Source: a virus | Taxonomy: Duplodnaviria > Heunggongvirae > Uroviricota > Caudoviricetes | IMG/VR virus record: IMGVR_UViG_2531839530_000005 | Location: 1-40,441 of that record | Strand: one strand, 5' to 3' | DNA length: 40,441 nt | Shown: positions 10,527 through 15,069 of the stretch, in pieces | Layout: the number at the start of each line of letters is the position of its first letter | Numbering within the stretch: position 1 is the first letter of the stretch | Position numbers and translations under genes: made by a program | The notes under the pieces: model-generated | Told to the model about the DNA's origin: nothing | Databases searched by the model: none | The model's input: only the letters and a program-made list of their open reading frames with translations

Positions 10527-11177
10527 TCACCTTCCCAGAAATAAATTGCTCAAATACCCATCAACAGTGGAGATACCTTCTTGCGCCATCTGTGGCAGCG
10601 ATTTCAGAATGGAATTATTCGGCAGCACCGTTGTTTTGGTGCCTGTATTCTGCACAGCAGACGTTCCGACTCCCTCGGTCATATTGTTTTTCGGGGCAAC
10701 CCTGACTGACTGCGTGGAGGTAATAATTACTTCCCTGAGGGTAAGTGTCGCCAGAAGCACATTTTCACTACTCTTATCGGTCGTAACCTCCAGCGTTTTT
10801 ATCAACATATTGTTGTAAATACGCTTGCCGGTTGTCACATCGAAAGGAATACGATTCCGCTGCAGGTTAAGCAGTTCCTGATACAGTTCTTTCGGGCTCA
10901 GCCCCAGTAAACTGGTAGCCGTCAGGTTACTGGCAAAATCAAGCAGCGATCCGCCTCCGGAAAAACCGGTTTCCATCACAACCTCAGAAGGGCGCCTGAA
11001 TGCGTGTTCTGATATATAACCAGCGCCCTCACCACTGGCACCAGCATTCGTGGGCTGTTCAACCGGATGTTCCGTAATTTCCAGGGCGTCAGTGTGCTTT
11101 TCGGTAATAACCACATCAGGAATAATGATTCCTATTGAGCGGGTTCGCTGCTGCAGTAAAACAGATAAAAAGTCCAT
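10527..11177 (-). CDS. Tail protein (post-tape-measure)
   Basis: Position; start overlaps tape-measure stop. Confidence 0.35.
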   Translation of the reverse strand: MDFLSVLLQQRTRSIGIIIPDVVITEKHTDALEITEHPVEQPTNAGASGEGAGYISEHAFRRPSEVVMETGFSGGGSLLDFASNLTATSLLGLSPKELYQELLNLQRNRIPFDVTTGKRIYNNMLIKTLEVTTDKSSENVLLATLTLREVIITSTQSVRVAPKNNMTEGVGTSAVQNTGTKTTVLPNNSILKSLPQMAQEGISTVDGYLSNLFLGR

Positions 11178-13204
11178 TACGCAGGTCCTTTTAATTGCTG
11201 TACCGCCCTGGCATTTACAGCCCCCTGCTTGTCAGCGATCAGATTAGCCGCCTCCTGAGGGTTGTTAACTCCATGAACATTTATAACAGTCTGCTGGTTA
11301 AGGCTGCCAGCGGCGGCCTGATACGCCAGCGGGCTGTTCCAGTTTGAATAACCTTCTTTGCGCGCCATCGACTGCATCAATGCTCCCATAGTCTGGGGAT
11401 CTGTAAGATTCAATATTGCATTCGGTGATACTCCCATCCATTTCGCAACATCCTGTGCATACTTTTTCGGATCGTTGTTATCACCTGCCGGGGCCCAGGT
11501 ACTGACAATATCCTGAATAGTCTGTAATGCTCGTCCGGTTGTTTTCCCGGTAAAGTAACGCATGAGCTGGTTTTTCATCGCCTCCCAGCCCTCAAGAGCT
11601 GATTCGAAAAACCGGAACCCTTTACCGCTCACCGGGCGAATGTTCCCGGGGTTATTGTTGCGATCAGCAAGAGTACCGCCGCCGGGGATGTCGGGCTGGA
11701 CGTTGGAGCCATGCACTACACCGTTACTCTGTCCCTGCCGGATAACTTTACCGGGTCCCCCGTGCAACCAGTCCATCCACGCAGGCCATTCACGGACCTC
11801 ACTGACATCCCTGCGTCCGATATCTGTTTTTATACCAATAGCAGCCAGCGTGTCGCCGATAATTCGCTTCGTATACCTCAGTGAAGATTTTGCGCTATCG
11901 GCAATATTTTCTCTGTCACTAACAATATAGCCCGCGTAAAGCGCCCACAATTTAAGCCAGGGTGGGACCGGTAAACCTGATATTTTTCCGAAAGCCCCCA
12001 GAACCCTGGATACCCAGACACCCGCGATGAATGTACCGAGGATTTCCAGTGCATTTTGCCAGCCGCCAACACCATCTTTTAGTTCCAGAAGGTGATCACG
12101 AAGCCAGGTGATCGCATCCTTCGCTTTATCTATTGCCGGTTGCCATTTTTCCCAGTCGATAAGACTGTTACCGCCTTCTTTCCATGTTTTGTAGTCTTCC
12201 CACAAGAGACCGAGAGCCACGATCAGACCGGTAATCAGCCCTATAGGTGACATCCAGAAAGTAGAGTTAAGTATCCGCATGGCGACAACCAGACCGCCGA
12301 TAACCTCTATCAGGGTTTTCGTTTCGGCATCCAGTTTCCCCCACCACTCGATGATATCGCCGACACCATCGACTATCCGAAATGCTACCCGCCCGACTAT
12401 CTCACCCAGCCAGAGGATCCCCTTTATGACCTTTGTGATGGTGACTTCAATTTTGGGAAAATTTTCAATTATCTTTTTGCGCAGGTTATCAATCTGCCCC
12501 GCCAGTCCGTCCGCAAGATTCGATCCGATTTTGTCCCGCGCCATCCCGGCCATTTCACCGAGCGATTTCAGCGAGGTCATAAACCGGTTTGACGATAAGG
12601 CAGCCTGATCGGCATTAAATCCGATCGCTTTCACCATTTCTGAATACTGAGCGCTGAACTGCCCCACACCACGACGCATGGCCATCAGGGTATTTTCGTC
12701 AATGCCCAGCATCTGCGCATACTGGTTAGCCCGGTAATACGGCATACCGCTGAGCTTCTGGCCTACACCTGTAAAAATAGCGGCCATGTCACGCATGTTG
12801 CCGCTGGCATCACGGGTCTGTACGCCCAGGCGATTCAGAAAGCCTTCTGCTCCGGGATTGTTACGAATAAACCGGGAGAGGCTTTCCAGAGAAGATCGCG
12901 CAGCGTCCACACTGCCGCCAACCTGCGAAACCGCATAGCCAATAGACTGAATTCCCTGGACTGTCGCGCCGGTGCGCAGTGACGCCCAGTAAAGATTATC
13001 CAGACCAGAGGCGATCTTAGCCGTGAAAGCCACCACGGACAGCGCAGCTCCTTCGACGGCCAGCCCCATTTTGATGACATTTGCAGTTGTACCGGCGAGG
13101 ACAGAACCGAACTTTTTCGCTCCTGCATCATCCACACTGAAGCCAAGCGAGACGAGGAAATCTTTAATAGTCTCGGCGTTCATTATCCTCTCTCCATTTC
13201 TCAA
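11177..13204 (-). CDS. Tail tape measure protein with C-terminal NNNPGNIRP-containing domain
   Basis: 675-aa protein with hydrophobic central segments, directly downstream of chaperone pair. Confidence 0.7.
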   Translation of the reverse strand: MRNGERIMNAETIKDFLVSLGFSVDDAGAKKFGSVLAGTTANVIKMGLAVEGAALSVVAFTAKIASGLDNLYWASLRTGATVQGIQSIGYAVSQVGGSVDAARSSLESLSRFIRNNPGAEGFLNRLGVQTRDASGNMRDMAAIFTGVGQKLSGMPYYRANQYAQMLGIDENTLMAMRRGVGQFSAQYSEMVKAIGFNADQAALSSNRFMTSLKSLGEMAGMARDKIGSNLADGLAGQIDNLRKKIIENFPKIEVTITKVIKGILWLGEIVGRVAFRIVDGVGDIIEWWGKLDAETKTLIEVIGGLVVAMRILNSTFWMSPIGLITGLIVALGLLWEDYKTWKEGGNSLIDWEKWQPAIDKAKDAITWLRDHLLELKDGVGGWQNALEILGTFIAGVWVSRVLGAFGKISGLPVPPWLKLWALYAGYIVSDRENIADSAKSSLRYTKRIIGDTLAAIGIKTDIGRRDVSEVREWPAWMDWLHGGPGKVIRQGQSNGVVHGSNVQPDIPGGGTLADRNNNPGNIRPVSGKGFRFFESALEGWEAMKNQLMRYFTGKTTGRALQTIQDIVSTWAPAGDNNDPKKYAQDVAKWMGVSPNAILNLTDPQTMGALMQSMARKEGYSNWNSPLAYQAAAGSLNQQTVINVHGVNNPQEAANLIADKQGAVNARAVQQLKGPA

Positions 13205-13361
13205 TGCGCCGCTGGTTATCCGCTTTTACCGCCAGATGGTCATTCAAGAGAGCAATGTCGTACAAATCGACAGAGCCATCTTTAAGTGATGTATAAGGAA
13301 TTAACCCGGCGTCAACCGGATTGAGAAGGTAGGACAGCCCGTCCGGCAGGCTGTTAAACAT
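13164..13361 (-). CDS. Tail assembly chaperone frameshift extension (gpT-like part of G/GT)
   Basis: Reading frame is open upstream through the 3' end of the chaperone gene in the -1 frame; start overlaps chaperone stop (TGATG). Confidence 0.5.
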   Translation of the reverse strand: MFNSLPDGLSYLLNPVDAGLIPYTSLKDGSVDLYDIALLNDHLAVKADNQRRIEKWREDNERRDY

Positions 13362-13813
13362 CAGCCCTGTTGCAGGCTCTGCGTCGTGCTGGTAAGGGGT
13401 GTAGGCAAAAAATTTCCCAGCGAATCGGCGACCACCCGCGCCACCAGCTGCAGCATGACCAGCAAGTCAATATCATCAAACATCAGTTCGCCCTGGGTAA
13501 ATACCGGCACCCATCCATCCATATGACGCCGCGACACCACCGCAAGACAGGGATGAATAATCGCATCGGTGTCATCTTCGGTCAGGGAAGACAGTTCCTC
13601 AGCGATACGCGGGAGCATGGTTTCAAACACCGGTTTTAACTGCTCGAATTTCACGGTGTCGATTTTGCCGTCAGCAGGCAAACGGGAGCGAATGCTCCCG
13701 AAATCTGACATCATTCCCGCCAGTACCGGCAGAAGTTTGCGGGTCACTTTCAGCTGGTCAAAAACGCTGAGTTTTGCCACGCGATATTTCACGCCTTTGA
13801 TTTCGAATTCCAT
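13361..13813 (-). CDS. Tail assembly chaperone (gpG-like)
   Basis: Acidic 150-aa protein immediately upstream of tape measure, with frameshift-compatible downstream ORF. Confidence 0.55.
   Translation of the reverse strand: MEFEIKGVKYRVAKLSVFDQLKVTRKLLPVLAGMMSDFGSIRSRLPADGKIDTVKFEQLKPVFETMLPRIAEELSSLTEDDTDAIIHPCLAVVSRRHMDGWVPVFTQGELMFDDIDLLVMLQLVARVVADSLGNFLPTPLTSTTQSLQQG
13406..13412 (-). other. Candidate -1 ribosomal slippery site (minus strand T_TTT_TTG within GGGAAATTTTTTGCC)
   Basis: Homopolymeric run near 3' end of chaperone; -1 frame from here is stop-free into ORF 13164-13361. Confidence 0.4.
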
Positions 13814-13816
13814 GTA

Positions 13817-14551
13817 TTAAAACTCCCCGAGAACCTGGTCAATCTTGCCGCAGTCAAACACCCACGGCATCGTATTACCGGTTTTAGCGTTGGCGTTACC
13901 CGCAGATGAAACGATGATGCTGGACAACAGAGCAAACTGTTCAGGCGGGATCAGCAAATCACGCGGGACCACAGAGTAACCAGAAGCGGCCCACGCATCA
14001 GACAGCACCTGGTTAATGCTTGCGCGGATTTCGTCCGGTGTTGAGGTTGCCCACGTTTTGGCAGCGTTGTTGACAGGCACGCCGTCCAGGGTAACAAGGC
14101 CTTTCAGGTTTAATGCGGAATCGCCAACATATACCTGTTCATCGTTATCCATCTGCCATTTCAGTTGCATCCCGTCATACTTCTGCGTATCAATCGGGCG
14201 GCCGACCTGCTGAGCAGCCTGCAATTCTATGACCGTCCAGCCAAGTTCCATCCCCCACAGGTTCAGCGGGTTACCGGATTTGCCGGTATCCACGTTCACG
14301 CCAGCAATAGCGGTTGAGTCTTTGCCTACCCAGTTTTTGCCATTCGGATTTGCACCAGTACCCGCAGCGGCGAAGCTGGTATTCGTCCAGCTGGAAATGT
14401 CATCTGCGATAGAGACATCTTCACGCAACTGAATATCGCGGGTCCAGGTGTACCCCACCAGTGGCAGGTTCAGCGTCTGGTCGAGTCGCTCCAGCTCCCC
14501 GATGAGAAAGGCACCAGAGCTGTCAACGGTTGCCTGATCAAAAGTAATCAT
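13817..14551 (-). CDS. Major structural protein: major tail (tube) protein by position, or small HK97/encapsulin-like major capsid protein
   Basis: 244 aa; sits between head genes and G/GT chaperone; identity unresolved. Confidence 0.45.
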   Translation of the reverse strand: MITFDQATVDSSGAFLIGELERLDQTLNLPLVGYTWTRDIQLREDVSIADDISSWTNTSFAAAGTGANPNGKNWVGKDSTAIAGVNVDTGKSGNPLNLWGMELGWTVIELQAAQQVGRPIDTQKYDGMQLKWQMDNDEQVYVGDSALNLKGLVTLDGVPVNNAAKTWATSTPDEIRASINQVLSDAWAASGYSVVPRDLLIPPEQFALLSSIIVSSAGNANAKTGNTMPWVFDCGKIDQVLGEF

Positions 14552-14562
14552 TCGTCTGTTCC

Positions 14563-15069
14563 TTAAATCTTCCAGGAAATTTCTGCATTGCCGTTAGCAT
14601 CACCGGCACCTGTGAATTCAGCGTTGGTCAGCACCACATTTTTGCCACTGACTGACGTGGACATGAATCCACCCAGCGGCACTTTCATGGATTCATCAGT
14701 GGAGACGACAACGTATACCGGGTCGCCTTTTTTGATAGTGCTGGCATCAAAATCAGAACCGAGATTAACGGTCACGTAGCCACGCTTCATGGCGTCGCCC
14801 GGGAAGTTCTTGCCTGTTCCCACCTAGCGAACCATGTCCGGCTGCGACGTGGTCGGATAAGGGCGCACGTAGATCCCCTTCACCTTGTCTGCGGTATCAC
14901 CATCTGCCAGCGGCACGAAAAAACCGTCATCATCGTATTTACCAGCCAGCCCATAGGCAGCGAAGGCGTTATCGGATTTAAGGACCACCGGTTCGACGGT
15001 TAAGTCCTGCGGGCGAGAGACAGCCCCGGCAATACCAACAGGCATCCGGTACAGAAATACATTATTCAT
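14563..15069 (-). pseudogene. Head structural/decoration-like gene interrupted by in-frame TAG (81 aa + amber + 86 aa)
   Basis: TAG at 14824-14826 separates two ORFs in the same frame; no SD before downstream GTG. Confidence 0.4.

What the first reader, a model, noticed from the sequence alone, without database searches (positions are those of the whole stretch)
13164..13813. Candidate programmed -1 frameshift in the tail chaperone pair
The chaperone gene ends with a slippery run (minus strand GGGAAATTTTTTGCC, heptamer T_TTT_TTG at 13406-13412). The -1 frame from there is stop-free and runs straight into the 65-aa ORF that overlaps the tape-measure start. This is the conserved G/GT arrangement of tailed phages. 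The heptamer ends in G, which is not the most canonical slip codon, so efficiency is uncertain.
Basis: seen in the sequence. Interest (0 to 1): 0.5.

Follow-up and report, generated by a model that had tools for sequence, protein, structure and literature searches.

The report
Tail-chaperone −1 frameshift signal, defective prophage
This is an ordinary but genuine example of the programmed −1 ribosomal frameshift that tailed phages use to make a long and a short tail-assembly chaperone from one gene, sitting intact inside an E. coli-type prophage that has lost its tail sheath and tube genes.

Summary
On the minus strand, a 150-aa tail assembly chaperone gene (13813..13361) contains GGGAAATTTTTTG (13418..13406). 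The −1 frame is stop-free from there to 13164 and ends 20 nt inside the tape-measure gene.

- The run holds three nested in-frame heptamers: G_GGA_AAT, A_AAT_TTT and T_TTT_TTG.
- In 52 non-redundant homologues (48–100% aa identity), the codons GGA-AAT-TTT-TTG are fixed at 90–100%. The same amino acids elsewhere in the gene vary freely in codon choice.
- The −1 peptide (Pfam DUF6889) is better conserved in the overlap than the 0-frame tail, and it has no conserved start codon.
- TTTTTTG is the reported phage P2 E/E+E' shift site, so the terminal G is not a concern.
- No downstream RNA structure is conserved. A conserved Shine-Dalgarno-like element (GGGTGGTC, 13437..13430) lies 11–17 nt upstream.
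- A homologous phage record (Klebsiella phage Mulock) already annotates this frameshift.

The predicted fusion is 216 aa.

In this window the prophage is defective. About 4 kb (neck, sheath, tube) is deleted and the cement gene carries an amber codon.

Verdict: a real member of a known kind, of low interest.

The parts
13361..13813 (-). Tail assembly chaperone gene, the 'G-like' 0-frame product of 150 aa.
13406..13418 (-). Slippery run GGGAAATTTTTTG. The 0-frame is (CT)G GGA AAT TTT TTG. It holds three nested heptamers: G_GGA_AAT (13418..13412), A_AAT_TTT (13415..13409) and T_TTT_TTG (13412..13406).
   Evidence: Sequence. In 52 non-redundant homologues: GGA 90%, AAT 100%, TTT 100%, TTG 100% at these columns. 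At other conserved columns, TTT is 30-48% of Phe codons and TTG 0-26% (about 12%) of Leu codons. T_TTT_TTN is kept in 51/52.
13430..13437 (-). Internal Shine-Dalgarno-like element GGGTGGTC (within CGGGUGGUCG). It lies 11, 14 and 17 nt 5' of the three heptamers and is a candidate upstream frameshift stimulator.
   Evidence: Strongest anti-SD pairing anywhere in the gene, averaged over 52 homologues: -9.8 kcal/mol against a gene mean of -2.3 (sd 1.6). It is stronger than synonymous-codon resampling of the same peptide (-10.4 vs -6.7; 45/52 below expectation). In the window it forms 8 bp at -12.7 kcal/mol. Arg126 is CGG in 33/46, whereas CGC dominates the other Arg columns. The function is inferred and untested.
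13164..13406 (-). −1-frame extension, the 'T-like' part: 80 codons plus stop, containing DUF6889. The mechanical ORF with an ATG is 13361..13164.
   Evidence: Open −1 frame. PF21829 DUF6889 E=4e-21 and phrog_4364 E=8e-24. The −1 peptide 'FFARTPxQRD...' is conserved from the slip site onward. Predicted fusion is 136+80 = 216 aa.
13361..13405 (-). Dual-coding overlap between the slip site and the 0-frame stop. The 0-frame tail is poorly conserved and predicted disordered. The −1 frame is the better conserved one.
   Evidence: Mean pairwise identity is 0.41 in the 0 frame and 0.60 in the −1 frame. pLDDT is below 50 for residues 136-150.
11177..13183 (-). Tape measure protein gene with a C-terminal lytic transglycosylase-like part. 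Its start overlaps the end of the −1 ORF by 20 nt, and its RBS (GGAGAGAGG) lies inside the −1 ORF.
   Evidence: phrog_2276 E=2e-247. Annotated 'lytic transglycosylase catalytic' in the E. coli relative. Sequence.
13895..13902 (-). Deletion junction. About 4.0 kb is missing relative to intact relatives: the 3' part of the major capsid gene, the head-tail/neck genes, the sheath DUF3383 and most of the tube DUF3277. The result is a 244-aa chimeric ORF (14551..13817) directly upstream of the chaperone gene.
   Evidence: BLAST of the window against L002: L002 1950 is joined to 5997. L002 annotation. Pfam on the 244-aa ORF shows a major-capsid N-terminal part plus a KPP10_Orf10 C-terminal end. TAAC microhomology at the junction.

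Best explanation
This is the programmed −1 ribosomal frameshift cassette of a contractile-tailed, SEN34/Mulock-like enterobacterial prophage.

Most ribosomes translate the chaperone gene to its stop and make a 150-aa protein. A minority slip back one nucleotide on the run G GGA AAU UUU UUG. They then continue in the −1 frame for 80 codons and make a 216-aa fusion: the chaperone core plus the DUF6889 domain.

The slip can occur on any of three nested heptamers. Slipping on G_GGA_AAU or A_AAU_UUU gives ...SLGNFFAYTP. Slipping on U_UUU_UUG gives ...SLGNFLAYTP.

The slip is probably helped by pairing of the 16S rRNA 3' end with an internal Shine-Dalgarno-like GGGUGGUC 11-17 nt upstream. No downstream RNA structure appears to be involved.

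By analogy with lambda gpG/gpGT and P2 E/E+E', the shared N-terminal part would coat the tape measure protein. The −1 domain would recruit the tube protein. Neither product would be in the virion.

What is shown here: the sequence anatomy, the family assignments, and nucleotide-level conservation of the run and the SD-like element. What is inferred: that frameshifting happens, its efficiency, the exact slip codon, and the roles of the two products.

In this window the cassette is intact, but the prophage lacks its sheath and tube genes. Here it is most likely an unused relic.
For: - **Anatomy.** In-frame heptamers and an open −1 frame.
- **Gene identities and order.** Tube, then TAC, then DUF6889, then TMP.
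- **Synonymous-site fixation.** Confined to codons 132-136 in 52 homologues below 95% identity.
- **−1 ORF length.** Nearly constant at 182-197 nt after the stop, while the +1 frame closes quickly.
- **−1 peptide.** Conserved from the slip site on, and more conserved than the 0-frame tail (0.60 vs 0.41).
- **No conserved start.** The junction codon is ACG in 102/149 loci and ATG in only 5. Some loci have no start at all. PGAP resorts to a CTG start.
- **Natural in-frame fusion.** P0004 (213 aa) carries PF21822 plus PF21829 and reads ...GNFFAYTPY, which corresponds to a T7 run.
- **Existing annotation.** Klebsiella phage Mulock (67% nt identity, identical run) is annotated with a 'tape measure chaperone frameshift product'.
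- **Precedent.** The P2 E/E+E' −1 shift occurs at TTTTTTG, without a downstream structure (PMC3091744).
- **E. coli motif rules.** R_RR.U_UU.Y motifs are shift-prone, and SD-like stimulators act 6-17 nt upstream (PMC4066793).
- **SD-like element.**
- **Domain boundary.** The slip site lies exactly at the end of the folded domain.
Against: - There is no experimental evidence for a fusion protein from this family in the literature I could search.
- By E. coli rules, U_UUU_UUG and G_GGA_AAU are not among the most efficient heptamers. UUG and AAU are 'heterogeneous' A-site codons.
- No conserved downstream stimulatory structure was found: mean z −0.1, alifold −0.29 kcal/mol.
- The SD-like signal partly follows from the conserved peptide ARVV. 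The homologues are phylogenetically related, so the resampling test overstates independence.
- In this window an ATG overlapping the stop (UGAUG) could allow separate expression of the 65-aa ORF.
- The prophage is defective, so there is no present selection for tail assembly here.
Confidence: 0.88

Rival explanations
1. Transcriptional slippage produces the fusion. RNA polymerase would stutter on the T6 run and add one U to a fraction of transcripts. Standard translation of those transcripts would then give the same ...GNFFAYTP fusion.
For: The T run is the most conserved part of the motif (51/52), and some lineages have T7 (5 of 149 loci). A one-T insertion gives exactly the in-frame fusion seen in P0004.
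Against: From general knowledge of bacterial transcriptional slippage, six residues is shorter than the runs of about 8-9 A/T that are known to give appreciable slippage. Slippage does not explain the fixation of GGA and AAT upstream of the T run. It does not explain the conserved anti-SD complementarity. It does not explain L107, where the T run is broken (AAT ATT TTG) but G_GGA_AAT and an intact −1 domain persist.
Confidence: 0.05
2. The 65-aa ORF is an independent gene. It would be translated from its own ATG (13361) by termination-reinitiation at the UGAUG overlap and make a free DUF6889 protein. On this view the slippery run is incidental.
For: In this window the ATG overlaps the TGA by one base. 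RefSeq annotation of relatives lists a separate 'DUF6889 family protein'.
Against: The ATG is present in only 5 of 149 homologous loci, and most have ACG. No SD precedes it, and some loci have no start codon at all in the −1 ORF. PGAP has to use CTG as the start. The −1 peptide upstream of the ATG is conserved (FFARTPxQRD). The run is fixed at synonymous sites. Reinitiation could coexist with frameshifting in this one strain.
Confidence: 0.05
3. The signal is a fossil with no current function in this genome. It is inherited intact but irrelevant, because the element can no longer build a tail.
For: A ~4.0-kb deletion removes the 3' part of the capsid gene, the neck genes, the sheath and most of the tube. 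There is a CAG-to-TAG amber at codon 82 of the cement gene. The deletion junction is absent from 5,426 complete E. coli genomes.
Against: This does not conflict with the mechanism; it concerns only present use. The cassette (SD-like element, run, −1 ORF, TMP start) has no lesion and is 98-99% identical to that of inducible phages such as vB_EcoM-606R2. If transcribed, it would still frameshift.
Confidence: 0.7

Closest known systems
Phage lambda gpG/gpGT tail assembly chaperone frameshift (Levin 1993; Xu, Hendrix & Duda 2004, 2013, 2014, as summarised in PMC5009743)
   Same: Two overlapping ORFs sit between the tail tube gene and the tape measure gene. [quoted passage not shown] One of the heptamers here (G_GGA_AAU) differs from lambda's G_GGA_AAG by a single base. 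The shift sits at the boundary of the folded chaperone domain.
   Different: There is no detectable sequence homology to lambda G or T; the Pfam families differ (PF21822 and DUF6889). The host phage has a contractile tail. The run contains three nested heptamers and ends in U_UUU_UUG. A conserved upstream SD-like element is present.
Phage P2 E / E+E' frameshift (Christie et al. 2002, as cited in PMC3091744)
   Same: It is in a contractile-tailed enterobacterial phage. The same heptamer, TTTTTTG, is the reported −1 shift site. No downstream RNA structure is involved.
   Different: Homology of the proteins to P2 E/E' was not tested here. The P2 products are smaller (91 and 142 aa, against 150 and 216 aa here). 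The additional GGGAAA heptamers and the SD-like element have not been checked in P2.
Klebsiella phage Mulock CPT_Mulock_014/015 'tape measure chaperone' and its 'frameshift product' (GenBank MN098327)
   Same: It is a true homologue, with 58% aa and 67% nt identity. It has the identical GGGAAATTTTTTG run at the same codon positions and the same −1 DUF6889 extension. The −1 frameshift is already annotated as a joined CDS.
   Different: Mulock is an intact lytic or temperate isolate with sheath and tube genes. Its −1 ORF has no ATG at the junction. The annotation is computational; I found no paper reporting experimental proof.
E. coli dnaX and IS911/IS3-type −1 frameshift signals with an upstream Shine-Dalgarno-like stimulator (PMC4066793)
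   Same: An internal SD-like sequence lies 6-17 nt 5' of the heptamer. This is the range in which stimulation has been demonstrated.
   Different: dnaX and the IS signals also use a downstream hairpin or pseudoknot, and usually A_AAA_AAG. No downstream structure is found here. The SD-like role here is only inferred.

Membership tests
G/GT-type tail assembly chaperone −1 programmed frameshift of tailed phages | Two overlapping ORFs located between the major tail (tube) gene and the tape measure gene. | tested here: met
   The order in the intact relative L002 is DUF3383 sheath, DUF3277 tube, TAC, DUF6889, TMP. The window has TAC 13813..13361, the −1 ORF running to 13164, and TMP from 13183. In the window the tube gene is mostly deleted.
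G/GT-type tail assembly chaperone −1 programmed frameshift of tailed phages | [quoted passage not shown] | tested here: met
   There are three nested heptamers at 13418..13406. The −1 frame is open from 103 nt before the stop to 197 nt after it.
G/GT-type tail assembly chaperone −1 programmed frameshift of tailed phages | The slippery site and the two-ORF arrangement are conserved among homologues beyond what the protein sequence requires. | tested here: met
   In 52 non-redundant homologues: AAT, TTT and TTG 100%, GGA 90%. The constraint is confined to codons 132-136. The −1 ORF length is nearly constant.
G/GT-type tail assembly chaperone −1 programmed frameshift of tailed phages | The downstream ORF has no translation start of its own. 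| tested here: met
   No conserved ATG/GTG/TTG with an SD is present. The junction codon is ACG in 102/149 loci. The window itself is an exception, with an ATG but no SD.
G/GT-type tail assembly chaperone −1 programmed frameshift of tailed phages | A fusion protein is made at a low, fixed ratio and is required for tail assembly; neither product is in the virion. | not testable with these tools
   This needs a reporter assay, mass spectrometry and genetics in an intact relative.
Tail assembly chaperone protein family (Pfam PF21822 Phage_TAC_15; HK97-TAC-like fold) | Sequence match above the curated threshold, and a TAC-like fold. | tested here: met
Pfam PF21829 DUF6889 | Sequence match above the curated threshold. 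| tested here: met
   It scores 74.9 bits against a cut-off of 23.9, over residues 22-60 of the 65-aa ORF.
SD-stimulated −1 frameshift signals (dnaX / IS911 type) | An SD-like sequence 6-17 nt 5' of the heptamer that pairs with the 16S 3' end. | tested here: met
   GGGUGGUC lies 11, 14 and 17 nt upstream and pairs at −12.7 kcal/mol. It is the deepest anti-SD minimum in the gene across 52 homologues and exceeds the synonymous resampling control. The spacing range is taken from PMC4066793. This is met in silico only.
SD-stimulated −1 frameshift signals (dnaX / IS911 type) | A downstream stimulatory hairpin or pseudoknot 5-9 nt after the heptamer. | tested here: not met
   The mean MFE z-score of the 70 nt downstream is −0.1 over 52 sequences. 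The alifold consensus is −0.29 kcal/mol with no helix.
Programmed transcriptional slippage | A homopolymeric A/T run long enough for RNA polymerase stuttering (about 8-9 or more, from general knowledge). | tested here: not met
   The run is T6 in 143 of 149 loci and T7 in 5.
Phage P2 E/E+E' family | Protein homology to P2 gpE / gpE+E'. | not tested
   Only the shared TTTTTTG heptamer is documented. No P2 sequence was compared.

The most novel reading that the evidence does not exclude
The 13-nt run is a deliberately redundant, three-heptamer slip site driven by an upstream anti-SD interaction rather than a downstream structure. It would give a frameshift efficiency well above lambda's ~3-4% and two fusion isoforms (…GNFF… and …GNFL…). 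If so, the 'family of unknown function' DUF6889 is the tube-recruiting T-domain of a large group of SEN34/Mulock-like enterobacterial myophages, and RefSeq systematically mis-annotates it as a separate gene with a CTG start.
Probability: 0.3. Interest if true: 0.35.

Novelty: new member of a known kind. Interest (0 to 1): 0.22.

Why it matters
The main value is for annotation. In RefSeq E. coli genomes this pair is annotated as 'phage tail assembly chaperone' plus a separate 'DUF6889 family protein' with an unlikely CTG start. The evidence here says DUF6889 is the −1-frame C-terminal domain of the frameshifted chaperone, the counterpart of lambda's T domain. That assigns a role to a domain of unknown function and gives the correct 216-aa product.

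It also adds a well-conserved natural example of nested heptamers with an upstream Shine-Dalgarno-like element and no downstream structure. That could be a convenient test case for bacterial −1 frameshifting rules.

It does not change what is known about phage tail assembly.

Tried and rejected
- **Downstream stimulatory RNA structure.** I folded the 70 nt after the run in each of 52 homologues and compared them with shuffles (mean z −0.1; 2 of 52 below −2). I also ran RNAalifold on 90 nt downstream and on the −60..+40 region. No consensus helix appeared. Rejected.
- **+1 frame as the target.** It closes 7 nt after the stop in the window and is short in the homologues. Rejected.
- **Independent start for the −1 ORF.** I scanned ATG/GTG/TTG with SD-like motifs in 52 homologues. 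Nothing is conserved.
- **PDB sequence relatives of the chaperone.** Searched with a profile; only noise hits with E>0.1. The fold comparison was needed instead.
- **Literature.** Searches for 'DUF6889', 'Mulock + frameshift' and 'SEN34 + frameshift' found no paper describing this family's frameshift.
- **Deletion junction.** I searched for it in 5,426 complete E. coli genomes. None carries it, so I could not identify the source strain.
- **Failed call.** One similarity search exceeded the length limit.
- **Viral-contig scan.** It returned only relatives at 95-100% identity. These were useless for the conservation tests, so I used genome contigs with a profile.
Full report
**1. The observation**

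On the minus strand the window reads ...GAT TCG CTG GGA AAT TTT TTG CCT ACA..., with GGGAAATTTTTTG at 13418..13406. The upstream ORF (13813..13361) encodes 150 aa and ends ...SLGNFLPTPLTSTTQSLQQG*.

In its frame the run reads (CT)G GGA AAT TTT TTG. So are A_AAT_TTT (13415..13409) and G_GGA_AAT (13418..13412).

The −1 frame is open from 103 nt before the 0-frame stop to 13164. It reads ...FFAYTPYQHDAEPATGLMFNSLPDG...EKWREDNERRDY*. The +1 frame closes after 7 nt. The mechanical 65-aa ORF (13361..13164) begins with an ATG that shares its A with the TGA. It ends 20 nt inside the next gene, whose ATG at 13183 is preceded by GGAGAGAGG.

**2. What the genes are**

- The 150-aa product is a tail assembly chaperone: PF21822 Phage_TAC_15 (E=2e-31) and phrog_1688 (E=2e-65).
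- The 65-aa ORF is PF21829 DUF6889 (E=4e-21) and phrog_4364.
- The 668-aa product downstream is the tape measure protein (phrog_2276, E=2e-247).
- It is followed by Dit-like, plug and hub baseplate proteins.

In an intact E. coli relative (TUM1880, 99.4% identical over the region) the order is sheath (DUF3383), tube (DUF3277), chaperone, DUF6889, tape measure. This is the canonical position of a G/GT pair.

**3. Conservation**

I collected homologous loci from three sources: phage records, IMG/VR and one genome per species. That gave 149 loci and 52 representatives below 95% amino-acid identity, reaching down to about 48% identity to the window protein.

*The slippery run*

- GGGAAATTTTTTG is identical in most loci, including ones where the flanks are only about 65% identical, such as Mulock and EKP1.
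- At codon level, F135 is TTT in 51/51. Other conserved Phe columns show 30-48% TTT.
- L136 is TTG in 48/48. Other Leu columns show 0-26% TTG.
- N134 is AAT in 48/48 and G133 is GGA in 47/52.
- The excess synonymous conservation is confined to codons 132-136.

*Which heptamer is kept*

- T_TTT_TTN is kept in 51/52.
- G_GGA_AAT is lost in several lineages (CTC GGA, GGC GGT, GGT GAT).
- One lineage (L107, Salmonella) has AAT ATT TTG. It keeps only G_GGA_AAT but still has an intact −1 domain.

This pattern suggests redundancy among the heptamers.

*The −1 ORF*

- Its length after the stop is almost constant (182-197 nt).
- The −1 peptide is conserved from the slip site onward: FFARTP(R/Y)QRD..GL.L.SLPDGED.L.RPV.AG.I.Y.ALKDGSVDL.DIA.MND.L..KADN..RI..WR..NER.
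- In the overlap it is more conserved than the 0-frame tail (0.60 vs 0.41 mean pairwise identity).

*No start of its own*

- The junction codon is ACG in 102/149 loci and ATG in 5, one of which is the window.
- Some loci have no start codon at all.
- RefSeq's 'DUF6889 family protein' is annotated from a CTG.

*Two independent pointers to the fusion*

- A database protein of 213 aa (P0004) carries both Pfam domains and reads ...GNFFAYTPY. This corresponds to a T7 allele or a sequencing error.
- The GenBank record of Klebsiella phage Mulock already annotates a joined 'tape measure chaperone frameshift product'.

**4. Stimulatory elements**

No downstream structure was found. The per-sequence MFE z-scores average −0.1, and RNAalifold finds no helix. 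The same is reported for P2.

Upstream, GGGTGGTC (13437..13430) can form 8 base pairs with the 16S rRNA 3' end at −12.7 kcal/mol.

- Averaged over the 52 representatives, this position is by far the deepest anti-SD minimum in the gene: −9.8 kcal/mol against a gene mean of −2.3 (sd 1.6).
- It is stronger than expected when the same peptide is re-encoded with the family's own codon usage: −10.4 vs −6.7, with 45/52 below expectation.
- Arg126 uses CGG in 33/46, whereas CGC dominates the other Arg columns.
- The spacing to the three heptamers (11, 14, 17 nt) lies within the 6-17 nt range in which SD-like stimulation of −1 frameshifting has been demonstrated in E. coli (PMC4066793).

This is suggestive but not proof. 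The sequences are related, and the peptide ARVV itself favours G-rich codons.

**5. Mechanism**

The best explanation is ribosomal −1 frameshifting of the G/GT type, producing a 150-aa chaperone and a 216-aa chaperone-DUF6889 fusion.

The P2 E/E+E' shift is reported at TTTTTTG.

By the E. coli motif survey, A-site UUY codons in R_RR.U_UU.Y motifs are shift-prone, and heterogeneous codons such as UUG and AAU are less so. A_AAU_UUU may therefore contribute as much as U_UUU_UUG.

The alternatives can be told apart by the junction peptide: GNFF or GNFL.

The roles of the two products (binding the tape measure, recruiting the tube protein) are inferred by analogy with lambda (PMC5009743).

**6. Rivals**

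- **Transcriptional slippage on T6.** It would give the same GNFF fusion. It does not explain the fixed GGA AAT, the SD-like element, or L107, and the run is short.
- **Independent initiation at the UGAUG overlap.** This is possible in this strain only, because the ATG is not conserved.
- **No current function here.** This is a caveat rather than a rival, and it is covered in the next section.

**7. Context in this window**

The prophage is defective.

- Relative to TUM1880, about 4.0 kb is deleted (L002 1950 is joined to 5997, with TAAC microhomology). The deletion fuses the N-terminal two-thirds of the major capsid gene to the last ~28 codons of the tube gene. It removes the neck genes, the sheath and most of the tube.
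- The cement-protein gene carries CAG-to-TAG at codon 82 (14826..14824).
- The junction is absent from 5,426 complete E. coli genomes.

The frameshift cassette itself has no lesion.

**8. Verdict**

This is a genuine, conserved member of a well-known class, and it is already annotated in one homologous phage record.

The small additions are:
- three nested heptamers rather than one;
- a candidate upstream SD-like stimulator;
- identification of DUF6889 as the frameshift-encoded T-like domain.

Interest is low.

Noticed in passing
window 13895-13902 (junction); chimeric ORF 13817-14551, minus strand: About 4.0 kb is deleted relative to intact E. coli relatives. The deletion fuses the major capsid gene (DUF2184) to the 3' end of the tail tube gene (DUF3277). 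It removes the neck genes, the sheath (DUF3383) and most of the tube. The junction has TAAC microhomology and is not found in any of 5,426 complete E. coli genomes.
   Followed up: yes
window 14824-14826, minus strand (between ORFs 14827-15069 and 14566-14823): The cement or minor-capsid protein gene (Gp24-like, 168 aa in relatives) is split by an in-frame amber codon, CAG to TAG at codon 82.
   Followed up: yes
window 13359-13363, minus strand: The ATG of the 65-aa ORF overlaps the chaperone TGA (UGAUG). This ATG is present in only 5 of 149 homologous loci; most have ACG. It could allow some termination-reinitiation in this strain.
   Followed up: partly
window 13164-13175, minus strand: The −1 ORF is three codons longer here (…NERRDY*) than in most relatives (…NER*). 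A synonymous GCT-to-GCC change in codon 3 of the overlapping tape-measure gene removes the usual TGA.
   Followed up: partly
L107 (Salmonella enterica strain s1, CP191473.1), around locus positions 1890-1900: This is the only representative with a broken T run (GGA AAT ATT TTG). G_GGA_AAT and a full-length conserved −1 domain persist, which hints that the first heptamer can serve alone.
   Followed up: partly
P0004 (213-aa database protein, 16 member sequences): It is a single-ORF fusion of PF21822 and PF21829 reading …GNFFAYTPY…, which corresponds to a T7 instead of a T6 run. It could be a real in-frame allele or a homopolymer sequencing error.
   Followed up: no
L002 6562-6735 (E. coli TUM1880) and other RefSeq E. 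coli records: RefSeq/PGAP annotates the −1 ORF as a separate 'DUF6889 family protein' starting at a CTG codon. In some records the same ORF is labelled 'NTP pyrophosphohydrolase'. Both look like annotation artefacts.
   Followed up: partly
L005 (Elizabethkingia phage EKP1, OM284015) and L099 (Chryseobacterium sp. 18061): These records are attributed to Bacteroidota hosts, yet they carry enterobacterial-type copies of this tail module (70% nt and 72% aa identity). This suggests contamination or host mis-assignment.
   Followed up: no
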